Notes: generated by a model from the sequence alone, not told the origin. Positions 30,791 through 36,790 are shown, counted from the stretch's first letter. The stretch is DNA of 64,000 nucleotides from an uncultured Alphaproteobacteria bacterium (GCA_951812775.1 OX638326.1:216151-280150), one strand, 5' to 3'. Made by a program: numbers and translations.

Positions 30791-31600
30791 ATGGCAATTT
30801 TCACGACCCTCGACGATCTGGCGCAAGAGATCAAGGATGGCACTCTGATCGTCCTGCCGCCGGATTACAGCAATGTGCCAATCGCGGCGGTATTTGCGTT
30901 GATCAGACGTCGCGTCAAGGGGCTCCATCTCCTGTTTGCGCCAATTGGCGGTATCGCCGGAGATCTGCTCATAGGTGCGGGCTGTGTTAAAACGCTCGAA
31001 GCGGCTGCCATAACTATGGGAGAAGCTGGTCTTGCCCCGAGGTTTTCAGAGGCTGTGCAAACCAACTCAATCAAAATCAAGGATTCTACCTGTCCGGCTA
31101 TCCACACAGCGTTACAGGCATCCGAAAAGGGCGTGCCCTTTATGCCATTGCGGGGATTAATCGGGAGCGACGTTCTCAATAACAGACCCGATTGGCAGGT
31201 CATCACCGATCCATTTGATGAGAACCATGGTCCAATCGTTCTTTTACCGGCCATCCAGCCTGATATCGCTCTAATACATACACGGCTAGCTGATCGCGAG
31301 GGCAATGTCTGGATAGGCAAACGCCGTGAACTCGTCACAATGGCTCACGCTGCGAAGACAACTTTCGTCACTGTTGAAGAAATTCAGGAGGAAAATCTCC
31401 TGGAGGATGAAAGAACGGCTACCGGCACTTTGCCGGATATGTATATCGGGGCAATTGCGCGGGCCAAGAAAGGCTGTTGGCCGCTGGGGCTTGCCGGTCA
31501 TTATGTACCCGACGGAAAGGCAATCACCGAGTATGTTGAGGCGGCAAAGACACAGGCGGGCTTCGAAGAGTGGCTAGAAGCTCATAGCGTGCCCCAATGA
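30791..31600 (+). CDS. CoA-transferase family I, subunit A-like
   Basis: LDDLAQEIKDGTLIVLPP...GDLLIGAGCVKTLEAAAITMGEAGLAPRF fits glutaconate/3-oxoacid CoA-transferase alpha subunits. The gene overlaps its B-subunit partner. Confidence 0.7.
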   Translation: MAIFTTLDDLAQEIKDGTLIVLPPDYSNVPIAAVFALIRRRVKGLHLLFAPIGGIAGDLLIGAGCVKTLEAAAITMGEAGLAPRFSEAVQTNSIKIKDSTCPAIHTALQASEKGVPFMPLRGLIGSDVLNNRPDWQVITDPFDENHGPIVLLPAIQPDIALIHTRLADREGNVWIGKRRELVTMAHAAKTTFVTVEEIQEENLLEDERTATGTLPDMYIGAIARAKKGCWPLGLAGHYVPDGKAITEYVEAAKTQAGFEEWLEAHSVPQ

Positions 31601-32337
31601 ATTGCAACCAGGAAGAATTTCTGATCTGCACAATTGCGACGTTGCTTGAGTCCTCTCAGCATGTCGCTGTGGGCATGGCGTCGCCAGTACCAGGGTCGGC
31701 AGCTTTACTGGCTCGCGAGGAAACGAAGGGTCGAATTGACGGGTTACGTCTGTCGATGATTGGCGGCGATGCCAATAATCCTTTTACCGACGGCGGGCGC
31801 GAACTGTTCGATTGCTCGGGGCAGGGAAGGTTCGACACATTCTTTCTGGGCGGTGTTCAGATTGACGGACAAGCCAATATTAATCTCGTCGGAACAGGTG
31901 AGTACCCGGCTATGGAGCGGCGGTTCCCGGGCTCTTTCGGCTCGGCTTACATGTATTTTGTTGTACCAAAGGTCATTTTATTTCGTCCGGAACATACCAG
32001 GCGCGTTTTCGTGCCTGAAGTTGACTTCATAAGTGCTCCAGGCACCAGCGAAGAAGGGGTGTATCGCCCCGGCGGCCCACATGCGCTGGTAACCGAACTC
32101 TGTCTGATGATCTTTGATCGAAAACGGAAACGATTTCAGCTGGCATCTGTTCATCCCGGACACAGCGTGGAAGAGGTGCTGGACAATACGGGCTTTGAGT
32201 TCGATATTCCGGAGACAGTCCCTGAGACTTTAGGGCCAACAGATCACAGGCTGGAACTTCTTCGAACCCAAATCAGTCCTAAGATCGCCAAAACCTATCC
32301 GGAGTTCGTCGCGCGTGTCTTTGAAACAGCCGATTAA
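31597..32337 (+). CDS. CoA-transferase family I, subunit B-like
   Basis: [18 protein letters not shown] is typical of CoA-transferase beta subunits. The ATGA overlap with subunit A suggests translational coupling. Confidence 0.7.
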
Positions 32338-35189: not shown

Positions 35190-35396
35190 CCGATCTTGTG
35201 GAGAGAAAACGTCTGTCTGGGATAGTTATAGGCTACCAATCGAGGAGCTTCAAACGAACTAGGGGCAGGAGGCGAATTATCCACCACCCAACGAAAATGT
35301 GAACTCAAATTAGCGTTGAAGATTGACCAAACCAATTGACTTACACCTGTAAAAGCCATGAAAATATCAGTCACTAGATACTGTGTTGAGATCGCA

Positions 35397-35972
35397 ATGA
35401 ACCGGACTTTTAAAATCCTGCTGGTGGCTTTGGTAGCTACTCTGTCCTTTGGACAGGTGACGCCAGGCTATACCGTTGATGAGATCAAAATCGGGCCCAA
35501 GATTGGTGTCGCATTGCCGCATTCATTGAAGGCTCAGGATCAAAATAGCCAGTATCGTGATTTTAAATCACTTGCTAGAAAGCGGGGCTTGATCGTGATG
35601 TTCTCACGGTCATTGGATTGGTGACCCCACTGCAAACGCCAGGCGGTCGCCTGGAACGCAAAACATCAGGAATTTAAGAAGCTTGGCTACGATATCGCCC
35701 TTGTCACCAAGGATGGTGTAGGTGTTCACAAACGGTTCTCTGCAGCTGAAGGTATTTCCTACGCGCTGCTCGCAGACCCTAAGACTGATATTATCGGTGC
35801 CTTTGGCTTGATTAAGCCGGGCGTCCCGAAATCCAGCGCGTGGTATGGGATCGCCGTTCCGGCAATTTTTGTTGTCAATTCGGATGGAAAAATCAGTCAT
35901 CGGTTTTCGACGGAAAACTACCGCGAAAGGCCGGATGTTGAACGTGTCCTTGCCACATTGGGCAAACAATAA
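35397..35972 (+). CDS. Periplasmic thioredoxin-fold redoxin (AhpC/TSA-TlpA-like) with in-frame UGA (putative selenocysteine) at 35622-35624; active site W-U-P-H-C
   Basis: A signal peptide (MNRTFKILLVALVATLSFGQV) is followed by ...GLIVMFSRSLDW-TGA-PHCKRQAVAWNAKHQEFKKLGYDIALVTKDGVGVHKRFSAAEGISYALLADPKTDIIGAFGL...AIFVVNSDGKISHRF. The same frame stays open from the TGA to the TAA at 35970-35972, and a SECIS-like hairpin follows the TGA. Confidence 0.75.
35637..35658 (+). promoter_or_regulatory. Candidate bacterial SECIS element
   Basis: CG-CCAGGC-GGUC-GCCUGG-AA-CG. The 6-bp perfect stem (35639-35644 / 35649-35654) has a GGUC loop, and the UGA-to-loop distance is 23 nt. Confidence 0.6.
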
Positions 35973-35973
35973 G

Positions 35974-36790
35974 CTAGTTAGCGATATCCTTTAGCTTGAA
36001 AAGGCGCGCCGCGTTGCGCCACAGAATGTTCTCGCGTTCTTCCTCGGTACAATTTGCATCTTCAAGTACCTTCAAGCGCATTGTATAGAGCGGTGCAGGT
36101 TCGCGGACACAACTCCATTCGCATCCCAACGGCCATACAGGGATCAAAGTAAGTAATCAGACTTCGTCCCATTTTAGTCAGAATAATTAGCACATCGGGA
36201 TACCGTGCTGCGACTTCATCTGCCCAGACCGGATGGCCATAAAATAACCCACCGGGGAATTGCGACCAGGCTGTCGGAAACTGCACAGGTACCTTGTACT
36301 TGTTTACAGCATCCATCATCGGCACCAGGTCCTTGGCGATTTTCTCGGGGTCTACCTCCGCGGTCATCGCGCGAATAAAGATTTCGCCAAGACCGATCAT
36401 CCCCAGGTCCTCAATACAATGCGCGACCTCATCAGCGGCGCTTTCTCTTACAGGTGCAGGGTCCTCCAAATATTCATAGGCGGCTTCCTGATCGTGGCCT
36501 ATGCGCATAAGGCCATACAGGCGATCAGGATGTCTTTCGACCGACTGGGCAACCTGATCATTGGTTACTGAACCCGGGCGTGCCTGAACAAAGGCCTTAT
36601 CGATCCCAAATTCATCCATGTCCGCGATGAGTTGATCAGAATTATCAATCGGGTCTTCGGTCAACGTACGATCATAGAGATCGGGGCAACGACTCTGAAA
36701 ACTCACAAGATCCTTGGTAGATTTAATATGATCCCTTGCATCGGCGAGGGCCGGGTAGCTCCAAACGTGAATATGTGTATCGATAATCAT
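35974..36790 (-). pseudogene. Amidohydrolase_2 (metal-dependent hydrolase/decarboxylase) family gene with a frameshifted C-terminus
   Basis: The N-terminus is MIIDTHIHVW. The track ORF ends at 36062, but the +1 frame continues as ...VREPAPLYTMRLKVLEDANCTEEERENILWRNAARLFKLKDIAN* (stop 35974-35976), which is the canonical family C-terminus. The total span is 817 nt, not a multiple of 3. Confidence 0.7.

What the first reader, a model, noticed from the sequence alone, without database searches (positions are those of the whole stretch)
35397..35972. Unannotated candidate selenoprotein: periplasmic redoxin with UGA at the first Cys of W-C-x-x-C plus a SECIS-like hairpin
The ORF track ends at the TGA at 35622-35624, but the same frame stays open to the TAA at 35970-35972. 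The downstream translation (PHCKRQAVAWNAKHQEFKKLGYDIALVTKDGVGVHKRFSAAEGISYALLADPKTDIIGAFGL...AIFVVNSDGKISHRF) continues an AhpC/TSA-TlpA-type thioredoxin fold. The TGA sits exactly where this fold carries the nucleophilic Cys (FSRSLDW-[TGA]-PHC), giving a U-x-x-C redox centre. Fourteen nucleotides after the TGA comes a perfect hairpin, CCAGGC-GGUC-GCCUGG (35639-35654), extendable by CG/CG across an AA bulge. The UGA-to-loop spacing is 23 nt, and the loop carries the GU-containing GGUC that I recall from the apical loop of the E. coli fdhF SECIS. TGA is an ordinary stop elsewhere in the window (scpA, tatA, crotonase), so codon reassignment is not the explanation. The N-terminus is a signal peptide, so this would be an exported Sec-containing thiol oxidoreductase. 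The minus-strand ORF 35610..35969 in the track is just its shadow. UxxC redoxins are a known selenoprotein class, but gene callers split or miss this locus.
Basis: partly seen in the sequence, partly recalled or inferred. Interest (0 to 1): 0.85.

Follow-up and report, generated by a model that had tools for sequence, protein, structure and literature searches.

The report
Unannotated exported selenocysteine redoxin gene
The apparent stop codon in the middle of this small gene almost certainly encodes selenocysteine, so the gene makes one secreted redox enzyme of a selenoprotein family already known from marine surveys, which gene callers routinely cut in two.

Summary
Window 35397-35972 (+) is one 191-codon gene for a signal-peptide-bearing AhpC/TSA-fold redoxin. 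Its only in-frame stop, TGA at 35622-35624, aligns with the first Cys of a near-invariant R-S-x-D-W-C-P-x-C motif in Cys homologues.

The TGA is kept in 14 distinct genes of the window's subfamily, all from marine alphaproteobacterial MAGs or metagenomes, and in 114 more distant ones. After the TGA, dN/dS is 0.02-0.07.

The hairpin CCAGGC-GGUC-GCCUGG (35639-35654) is invariant at its synonymous sites in those 14 genes, while flanking codons vary. In the sister subfamily a different hairpin occupies the same place, with compensatory changes (G-C 87, A-U 24, 3 exceptions). Both put G-U at nt 25-26. The GGUC loop is the same as in E. coli fdhF.

Caveats:
- selA, selB, selC and selD could not be looked for, because the source genome is not available.
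- The hairpin is not unusually stable.
- Some Cys forms keep the stem.

The family ("Prx-like thiol:disulfide oxidoreductase", PF00578, UxxC) has been predicted since 2004-2005, so this is a new member of a known kind. It is a useful annotation fix, not a discovery.

The parts
35336..35365 (+). Promoter-like site (TTGACT-18-GAAAAT) upstream of the ATG at 35397. This is weak, consensus-only evidence.
   Evidence: 2 sites found against 0.9 expected by chance. The site lies inside the alternative upstream ORF start at 35358, which favours 35397 as the start. Orthologues L010 and L011 also begin at MNRTFK.
35397..35972 (+). Complete coding sequence of the selenoprotein: 191 codons including Sec76, then TAA.
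   Evidence: frame; AhpC-TSA 1.1e-21 across the TGA; dN/dS 0.02-0.07 on both sides of the TGA.
35397..35474 (+). Predicted Sec-type signal peptide (about residues 1-26, MNRTFKILLVALVATLSFGQVTPGYT|VDE). Inferred, not tested with a predictor.
   Evidence: The sequence has a basic n-region and a hydrophobic core. Orthologues have canonical A-x-A|VDE sites at the aligned position (AYA|VDE in L002, SFA|VDE in L010, SYA|VDE in L011). This segment is only 23% identical between orthologues, against 83% for the mature part. Full-length Cys homologues also have hydrophobic N-termini. There is no twin-arginine motif.
35622..35624 (+). UGA read as selenocysteine (Sec76).
   Evidence: It aligns with the first Cys of W-C-P-x-C in 22 of 23 full-length homologues. 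TGA is conserved in 14 class A and 114 class B distinct genes.
35622..35633 (+). U-P-H-C redox centre (TGA CCC CAC TGC).
35639..35654 (+). SECIS-like hairpin: 6-bp stem CCAGGC/GCCUGG with GGUC tetraloop (loop 35645-35648; G-U at nt 25-26 from the UGA). It is encoded by the last base of codon 81 plus the codons for Q-A-V-A-W.
   Evidence: fold. (the longest identical run against the orthologue, 35637-35658). (98.8% paired across 14 genes; a class B hairpin at the same position shows compensatory changes). (one codon per residue inside the hairpin; nt 18 is always C although its codon encodes 8 different residues). (apical Val in 127 of 128 TGA forms against 2 of 22 Cys forms). (same GGUC loop as fdhF).
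35970..35972 (+). True stop codon (TAA).
   Evidence: Orthologues stop at the aligned position.
35610..35969 (-). Minus-strand ORF. It is a shadow of the plus-strand gene, not a gene.
   Evidence: It is interrupted by 2-4 stops in orthologues L002, L010 and L011. The substitution pattern follows the plus-strand codon phase.

Best explanation
Window 35397-35972 encodes one exported thioredoxin-fold selenoprotein of the AhpC/TSA ("Prx-like", UxxC) class.

Proposed mechanism:
1. The ribosome reaches UGA at 35622.
2. The mRNA 14 nt downstream folds into a 6-bp hairpin topped by a GGUC loop.
3. SelB carrying Sec-tRNA(Sec) binds the loop G-U and delivers selenocysteine, so translation continues for another 115 codons.
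4. The N-terminal signal peptide sends the protein through the Sec translocon to the periplasm.
5. There the U-P-H-C centre cycles between selenol/thiol and selenenylsulfide, reducing disulfides, sulfenic acids or peroxides on periplasmic targets.

Shown here: the gene is a single selected reading frame; the TGA occupies a Cys position; and an RNA-level constraint acts on the hairpin.

Inferred: SelB binding, actual selenium insertion, export, and the substrate.
For: - Fold: the AhpC-TSA domain spans the TGA.
- Sec/Cys pair: 22 of 23 full-length homologues have Cys at the TGA column, within R-S-x-D-W-C-P-x-C.
- TGA conservation: syntenic orthologues at 88, 84 and 73% identity and relatives at 44-49% all keep the TGA and the full-length frame. 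A hairpin-blind DNA pattern retrieved about 120 metagenomic genes, all homologous, all with TGA and all open on both sides of it.
- Selection: dN/dS after the TGA is 0.017, 0.062 and 0.068, with dS above 1. Differences by codon position are 25/16/66.
- Paralogues: tandem copies (two in L007, three in L013, L015-L018) all keep the TGA, in independent assemblies.
- Hairpin, class A: across 14 genes each hairpin codon uses a single codon (CAG 14/14, GCG 13/13, GTC 14/14, GCC 11/11), while neighbouring Pro, Lys, Asn, Glu and Phe codons vary. Nt 18 is always C.
- Hairpin, class B: 114 genes carry a different stem at the same place. Pair 21-31 is G-C in 87, A-U in 24 and other in 3 (Fisher 3e-21), with A-U variants spread over 13 peptide backgrounds. 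Pairing is 93%, against 10-39% when the partner is slid.
- Loop: G-U at nt 25-26 in 127 of 128 TGA forms. The apical Val is present in only 2 of 22 Cys forms.
- fdhF: the loop is identical to the fdhF SECIS loop.
- Genetic code: TGA is a normal stop in this genome.
Against: - No selA, selB, selD or tRNA-Sec was seen in the window or in 951 kb of related loci. The source genome could not be found, so the decoding machinery is unverified.
- Hairpin stability is not significant on its own.
- Within the window's own subfamily, the stem's only variation is G-C to G-U at one pair plus one A.C mismatch, so there is no true covariation there.
- Four of the six pairs follow from the Q-A-x-A-W peptide.
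- The closest Cys form keeps the stem with a GCGG loop, and a second Cys form also folds locally.
- The stem has no bulged U and sits 2-3 nt further from the UGA than in E. coli fdhF.
- No Rfam model matches.
- No member of this family has been verified experimentally according to the reviews read.
Confidence: 0.92

Rival explanations
1. UGA is recoded, but not as selenocysteine. Cys could be inserted by a tRNA-Sec-like tRNA charged with Cys (recoding of Sec sites of this kind has been reported; Mukai et al. 2016, seen only as a reference). Alternatively, Trp or Cys could be inserted by near-cognate read-through that the hairpin stimulates.
For: The Sec machinery was not found in any sequence held. 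The hairpin and the conserved TGA would fit any hairpin-dependent recoding equally well.
Against: The GGUC loop with G-U at a fixed distance from the UGA is the SelB-type signature and is the same as in fdhF. The family is consistently classed as a Sec/Cys family in marine surveys in which SelD is also abundant. If Cys were the product, a simple TGA to TGC/TGT change would be expected to take over, yet 128 distinct genes keep TGA.
Confidence: 0.04
2. The gene is a pseudogene or a truly split gene. The TGA terminates translation, giving a 75-residue peptide, and the downstream part is untranslated or decaying.
For: Gene callers annotate it this way: the orthologue is called as a 118-aa hypothetical protein plus an 89-aa AhpC-TSA fragment. 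A neighbouring gene in the window does look broken.
Against: Downstream dN/dS is 0.02-0.07 with saturated dS. The TGA sits at the same codon in 128 distinct genes spanning 33-88% identity. No start codon or ribosome-binding site follows the TGA, and the cut would fall inside the active-site motif.
Confidence: 0.02
3. The TGA is a sequencing or assembly error for TGC, TGT or TGG.
For: None specific. The raw reads for the window are not available.
Against: The same TGA is present in syntenic orthologues from at least five MAGs and many independent metagenome assemblies.
Confidence: 0.01

Closest known systems
Prx-like thiol:disulfide oxidoreductase selenoprotein family (PF00578, UxxC/UxxU; "Prx-like protein" of the Sargasso Sea survey, "Prx-like 1" of the GOS survey)
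   Same: It has the AhpC/TSA domain and Sec at the first position of a thioredoxin-like U-x-x-C, replacing the T of the peroxiredoxin T-x-x-C. It has abundant Cys homologues, a bacterial SECIS-like hairpin just after the UGA, and a marine origin.
   Different: Nothing essential. This is a particular alphaproteobacterial subfamily (W-U-P-H-C, with a Q-A-V-A-W-encoded hairpin and a signal peptide). I did not compare it directly with the family's reference sequence (WP_010940744.1), so the subfamily assignment ("Prx-like 1") rests on the defining features, not on an alignment. The papers read do not mention signal peptides for this family.
E. coli fdhF SECIS element
   Same: It lies inside the ORF immediately 3' of the UGA and has an identical GGUC apical tetraloop (G-U exposed) on a short G+C-rich stem.
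   Different: The loop is at nt 24-27 rather than 22-25 from the UGA. The stem starts 14 nt rather than 11 nt after the UGA. The stem is a perfect 6 bp without the bulged U, and there is no conserved lower stem.
BCP/PrxQ peroxiredoxins (e.g. PDB 5iph, 2cx3)
   Same: They are the closest solved folds by sequence (E 3e-07), and the alignment covers residues 66-167.
   Different: Peroxiredoxins have P-x-x-x-T-x-x-C with a single peroxidatic Cys. Here the Thr position is Sec and the Pro position is not Pro. All NCBIfam peroxiredoxin models score far below their cut-offs (36.8 against 140 bits and lower).
TlpA/ResA/CcmG-type periplasmic thiol-disulfide oxidoreductases
   Same: They are exported thioredoxin-fold proteins with a W-C-x-x-C active site. 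There are weak hits to ResA.
   Different: The ResA model scores 24.8 bits against a cut-off of 170. There is no cytochrome-maturation or DsbD/CcdA gene context: the neighbours are uvrA, an amidohydrolase and a short-chain dehydrogenase.
SelL-related redox proteins (NCBIfam NF040769)
   Same: They are Prx-like fold redox proteins related to a eukaryotic selenoprotein. This was the second-best NCBIfam hit.
   Different: The score is 34.5 bits against a cut-off of 120, and the match covers only residues 44-140, so this protein is not a member.

Membership tests
Prx-like thiol:disulfide oxidoreductase selenoproteins (PF00578, UxxC) | AhpC/TSA (PF00578) domain that includes the Sec site | tested here: met
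   PF00578 at 1.1e-21 (77.5 bits, cut-off 26), residues 44-168, spanning residue 76.
Prx-like thiol:disulfide oxidoreductase selenoproteins (PF00578, UxxC) | In-frame UGA at the first position of a U-x-x-C motif, aligned with Cys in homologues (a Sec/Cys pair) | tested here: met
   Cys at that column in 22 of 23 full-length homologues; against peroxiredoxins it is the Thr position of T-x-x-C, as the Sargasso Sea paper describes for this family.
Prx-like thiol:disulfide oxidoreductase selenoproteins (PF00578, UxxC) | [quoted passage not shown] | tested here: met
   14 class A and 114 class B distinct genes; dN/dS of 0.02-0.07 downstream.
Prx-like thiol:disulfide oxidoreductase selenoproteins (PF00578, UxxC) | Organism has the Sec-decoding trait (selA, selB, selC, selD) | not testable with these tools
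   None of these is in the window or in 951 kb of related loci (SelB was not probed).
Prx-like thiol:disulfide oxidoreductase selenoproteins (PF00578, UxxC) | Selenium actually incorporated at the UGA | not testable with these tools
   This needs 75Se labelling or mass spectrometry. The reviews list the whole family as predicted only.
Bacterial SECIS element (general consensus: stem-loop just 3' of the UGA, small apical loop containing G) | [quoted passage not shown] | tested here: met
   6-bp stem at nt 18-33 with a 4-nt GGUC loop. The consensus features are as stated.
Bacterial SECIS element (general consensus: stem-loop just 3' of the UGA, small apical loop containing G) | Structure maintained by selection (covariation or suppressed synonymous change) | tested here: met
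   Class B shows compensatory G-C/A-U changes (87/24/3) and C-G/U-A changes (110/4). Class A, the window's own, shows suppressed synonymous change but only one G-C to G-U variation, so covariation within class A alone is inconclusive.
Bacterial SECIS element (general consensus: stem-loop just 3' of the UGA, small apical loop containing G) | Element specific to UGA-containing forms | tested here: inconclusive
   The loop G-U (apical Val) is present in 127 of 128 TGA forms against 2 of 22 Cys forms. However, 2 of 3 Cys-form DNAs examined still fold locally, and one keeps the same stem.
E. coli fdhF-type SECIS (strict) | GGUC-type loop with exposed G-U | tested here: met
   identical GGUC tetraloop.
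E. coli fdhF-type SECIS (strict) | Bulged U in the upper stem, and an 11-nt spacing between the UGA and the minimal stem-loop | tested here: not met
   The stem is a perfect 6 bp without a bulge and starts 14 nt after the UGA, so the loop lies 2 nt further away. That these features matter in E. coli is from my own knowledge of the fdhF literature.
Peroxiredoxins proper (Prx, BCP/PrxQ) | P-x-x-x-T/S-x-x-C peroxidatic motif and a family-model score above the cut-off | tested here: not met
   S-L-D-W-U-P-H-C aligns with P-K-D-S-T-P-G-C, so both the Thr and the Pro are replaced; the best peroxiredoxin model scores 36.8 bits against a cut-off of 140.
TlpA/ResA-type thiol-disulfide oxidoreductases | Family-model score above the cut-off | tested here: not met
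   ResA NF002854 scores 24.8 bits against a cut-off of 170. The W-C-x-x-C motif and the export signal are shared.

The most novel reading that the evidence does not exclude
In the window's subfamily the mRNA can adopt either of two mutually exclusive folds. One is the SECIS hairpin. The other is a 7-bp helix in which GG-UGA-CC pairs with the SECIS loop and 3' arm (GGUCGCC), burying both the UGA and the SelB-binding loop. This alternative helix can form fully in 11 of 14 class A genes and in no class B gene. It could act as a toggle that tunes Sec insertion against termination, for example with selenium supply or translation rate. Every base involved is already constrained by the W-U-P codons or by the hairpin, so coincidence is the likelier explanation.
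Probability: 0.05. Interest if true: 0.55.

Novelty: new member of a known kind. Interest (0 to 1): 0.25.

Why it matters
The practical value is in annotation. This gene and its relatives are split into a "hypothetical protein" and a redoxin fragment in public MAGs, or missed altogether. That undercounts selenium use in marine alphaproteobacteria.

The comparative set assembled here gives a clean, family-specific SECIS signature that could be used to rescue such genes automatically:
- 14 class A genes, with the hairpin encoded by Q-A-V-A-W.
- 114 class B genes, with the hairpin encoded by Q-L-V-E/Q-L.
- G-U at nt 25-26 from the UGA in both classes.

It also shows how strongly a SECIS inside an ORF dictates the encoded peptide: Val at the apex in 127 of 128 TGA forms against 2 of 22 Cys forms.

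The signal peptide suggests a periplasmic UxxC selenoprotein, and no member of the family appears to have been tested experimentally. None of this would surprise a selenoprotein specialist.

Tried and rejected
- **Thermodynamics.** With upstream bases included, the minimum-energy fold is a different helix, and z-scores are only -0.8 to -1.8. I did not use stability as evidence.
- **Rfam.** Nothing at gathering threshold apart from tRNA-Lys. At E up to 10 there were only chance hits well below threshold: c-di-GMP-I, AbsR28 and RAGATH-25.
- **Word-indexed protein search.** The full-length U-to-C protein found only one hit, the N-terminal fragment of the orthologue.
- **Exhaustive HMMER search.** I ran the 115 residues after the TGA instead.
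- **Window's own contig.** It could not be found through an encoded protein, so the rest of the genome cannot be examined.
- **The search for related loci.** A 12-sequence alignment had no usable conserved stretch. A 6-sequence alignment worked but used a single peptide pattern and gave only 5 loci.
- **Sec machinery.** Nothing was found. This is uninformative for a whole genome.
- **Other selenoprotein genes in the window.** The other in-frame-TGA candidates are shadow frames of known genes.
Not conserved.
- **"Hairpin only in TGA forms".** Rejected as stated, because Cys forms can keep a stem. I replaced it with the loop G-U / apical Val test.
- **Not spent.** I did not use a large protein search on SelD. 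Ranking by similarity to an E. coli query would be unlikely to surface the right MAG's protein.

Full report
**1. What is in the sequence**

From the ATG at 35397 the plus-strand frame reads MNRTFKILLVALVATLSFGQVTPGYTVDE...FSRSLDW-TGA-PHCKRQAVAWN...LGKQ-TAA. It has one internal stop, TGA at 35622-35624, and the final TAA at 35970-35972. ORF listing splits it at the TGA.

With the TGA read as Cys, the 191-residue product matches Pfam AhpC-TSA (1.1e-21) over residues 44-168 and Redoxin (2.9e-13). The domain therefore runs straight through the TGA.

The hairpin CCAGGC-GGUC-GCCUGG lies at 35639-35654. It is the minimum-energy structure when folding starts at the UGA, as it would behind a ribosome. 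If upstream bases are included a different helix wins. In no case is the energy unusual compared with shuffled sequence (z = -0.8 to -1.8).

**2. TGA is a normal stop in this genome**

TGA ends 18 of the 50 open frames of 200 codons or more in the window. Large conserved genes such as UvrA, GyrA and several tRNA synthetases come out full length under the standard code. Reassignment of TGA is excluded.

**3. Orthologues keep the TGA, and everything after it is under selection**

The only word-index hit was a 118-aa "hypothetical protein" from a marine Rhodospirillaceae MAG that ends at exactly ...SRSLDW. Its DNA, found in many Tara and other assemblies and syntenic with the window (uvrA | redoxin | amidohydrolase | SDR), has TGA at the same codon. 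The frame stays open to a TAA at the same position.

A scan of species-representative genomes found four more alphaproteobacterial MAGs at 88, 84, 49 and 44% identity. All have W-TGA-P-H-C and the full frame.

Comparing the window with the 88, 84 and 73% orthologues gives these figures for the 115 codons after the TGA:
- dN/dS is 0.017, 0.062 and 0.068.
- dS is above 1, so synonymous sites are saturated.
- The 53 mature-protein codons before the TGA give 0.02-0.08.
- Differences by codon position are 25/16/66.

This rules out a pseudogene, a real terminator, and a sequencing error. Tandem paralogues all retain the TGA: two copies in L007 and L008, and three in L013 and four independent assemblies of the same locus.

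**4. The TGA occupies a Cys position**

An exhaustive HMMER search with the C-terminal 115 residues gave 635 representatives. They fall into two kinds:
- Full-length proteins of about 170-200 aa.
- Fragments of about 90-115 aa that begin inside the domain, which are the C-terminal halves of further split genes.

In an alignment of 23 full-length homologues, 22 have Cys at the TGA column, within the consensus F-x-R-S-x-D-W-C-P-x-C-x-x-Q. Most have hydrophobic N-termini.

Against true peroxiredoxins (BCP, PDB 5iph), U-P-H-C aligns with T-P-G-C. Sec therefore replaces the peroxiredoxin Thr, and the second Cys corresponds to the peroxidatic Cys. The Sargasso Sea paper describes its "Prx-like" selenoprotein family in just this way.

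**5. The hairpin is under RNA-level selection**

To avoid circularity, I scanned the metagenome collection with a pattern built only from protein-level constraints (G-x4-F-x-R-S-x-x-W-TGA-x-x-C-x-x-Q). The next four codons were left free. All ~120 metagenomic matches were homologues (E 1e-8 to 1e-56) with open frames on both sides of the TGA. Together with the earlier loci this gives 128 distinct sequences in two classes.

*Class A* (14 genes, including the window; marine alphaproteobacteria) encodes Q-A-V-A/V-W with the window's hairpin.
- Pairing is 98.8%.
- The only variation in the stem is G-C to G-U at one pair (3 genes) and one A.C mismatch.
- Each hairpin codon uses a single codon in every gene: CAG 14/14, GCG 13/13, GTC 14/14, GCC 11/11.
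- Flanking codons vary freely: Pro uses four codons, Lys AAA/AAG is 4:4, and Asn, Glu and Phe are mixed.
- Nt 18 is always C although its codon encodes eight different amino acids. It pairs with G33.
- Against the 73% orthologue, the longest identical run in the whole gene is the 22 nt at 35637-35658.

*Class B* (114 genes, largely from JGI metagenome contigs whose habitats I did not check, with about 280 residues after the TGA) encodes Q-L-V-E/Q-L. It forms a different stem at the same place.
- Pair 21-31 is G-C in 87, A-U in 24 and non-matching in 3 (Fisher 3e-21).
- The A-U variants occur in 13 different peptide backgrounds.
- Pair 22-30 is C-G in 110 and U-A in 4.
- Overall pairing is 93%, against 10-39% when the 3' partner is slid by 1-3 nt.

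Both classes put G-U at nt 25-26 from the UGA, supplied by a Val codon at the apex. Val occupies that position in 127 of 128 TGA forms but only 2 of 22 Cys forms (Fisher 1e-21; the sequences are not independent). I fetched the E. coli fdhF SECIS directly. It has the same GGUC tetraloop, at nt 22-25 rather than 24-27.

**6. Limits of the hairpin evidence**

- Four of the six class A pairs are dictated by the Q-A-x-A-W peptide.
- The closest Cys form (L139, Q-A-R-A-W) keeps the stem with a GCGG loop. Another Cys form folds locally, and a third does not. The stem is therefore not diagnostic, but the loop G-U is. The Cys-form stems look like relics of Sec-to-Cys conversion.
- There is no bulged U, and the spacing differs from fdhF by 2-3 nt.
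- No Rfam family matches.

**7. What could not be tested**

selA, selB, selD and tRNA-Sec are absent from the window and from 951 kb of related loci. SelB was not probed. That is a small fraction of any genome, so the absence means little.

The window's own contig is not in the look-up collection, and the collection scans were exhausted. The literature shows that some Rhodospirillales have the Sec trait, with selC sometimes nested in selB. That says nothing about this organism. The long-term maintenance of TGA-interrupted, strongly selected genes and their tandem duplicates is indirect but strong evidence that the machinery exists.

**8. Mechanism**

Most likely (0.92), SelB carrying Sec-tRNA(Sec) binds the GGUC loop and decodes UGA76 as Sec. 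The signal peptide directs Sec-translocon export: it has a basic n-region, a hydrophobic core, canonical A-x-A|VDE sites in orthologues, and no twin arginine. The mature protein of about 165 residues uses its U-P-H-C centre for periplasmic thiol/disulfide or peroxide chemistry. Export and substrate are inferred.

The neighbours (uvrA on one side; an amidohydrolase and an SDR on the other) give no functional clue. A weak promoter-like site at 35336-35365 fits a monocistronic gene starting at 35397.

**9. Comparison with what is known, and novelty**

The features match the "Prx-like thiol:disulfide oxidoreductase" family (PF00578, UxxC/UxxU).
- The 2022 and 2026 reviews list it as predicted, the latter "with high confidence".
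- It had 22 sequences in the Sargasso Sea survey.
- In GOS it appears as "Prx-like 1", with 225 selenoprotein sequences and 2,740 Cys homologues.

It is not a member of any curated NCBIfam family, because all scores are far below the cut-offs. It is neither a true peroxiredoxin nor a ResA/TlpA protein. This is a new member of a known kind. I score it 0.25.

Noticed in passing
window 35977-36790 (-): The Amidohydro_2 gene just downstream of the redoxin looks broken in the window. The intact 308-aa orthologue matches residues 1-226 in one frame (36790..36113) and residues 262-308 in another (36117..35977). So about 35 codons are missing and the frame shifts. The gene is intact in L001, L010 and L011. 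It is either a pseudogene or an assembly error.
   Followed up: partly
window 35620-35651 (+): An alternative 7-bp helix pairs GGUGACC (the end of the Trp codon, the UGA, and CC of the Pro codon) with GGUCGCC (the SECIS loop and 3' arm). It is the minimum-energy fold when upstream bases are included. All 7 pairs can form in 11 of 14 class A genes and in no class B gene. It is mutually exclusive with the SECIS hairpin. It may be a coincidence of independently constrained bases.
   Followed up: partly
L013 9400-11150; L015-L018 9058-10783; L007 1927-3225: There are tandem arrays of TGA-containing redoxin paralogues: three copies in an uncultured Rhodospirillaceae MAG and four independent metagenome assemblies, and two in another metagenome. 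The third copy in L013 (W-U-G-G-C) has an A.C mismatch in its hairpin. In two assemblies it ends 16 codons early, so it may be decaying.
   Followed up: partly
L139 1001-1612: The closest Cys-form homologue (P0020, W-C-V-Y-C...Q-A-R-A-W) keeps the class A stem CCAGGC/GCCUGG, but its loop is GCGG instead of GGUC. It looks like a relic of a Sec-to-Cys conversion.
   Followed up: partly
L019-L138 (class B loci): Most TGA-containing relatives from the JGI metagenome contigs continue for about 280 residues after the TGA, against 115 here. They therefore carry an extra C-terminal domain that I did not identify.
   Followed up: no
L083 1494 (-) and 2374 (+): One metagenome contig carries two class B TGA-redoxin genes on opposite strands.
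   Followed up: no
window 30791-32337 (+): Two ORFs (269 and 246 aa) lie between the GIDA-family gene and uvrA in the window. They have no counterpart at that position in the syntenic MAG locus L001, where the GIDA gene directly abuts uvrA. This may be a small insertion.
   Followed up: no
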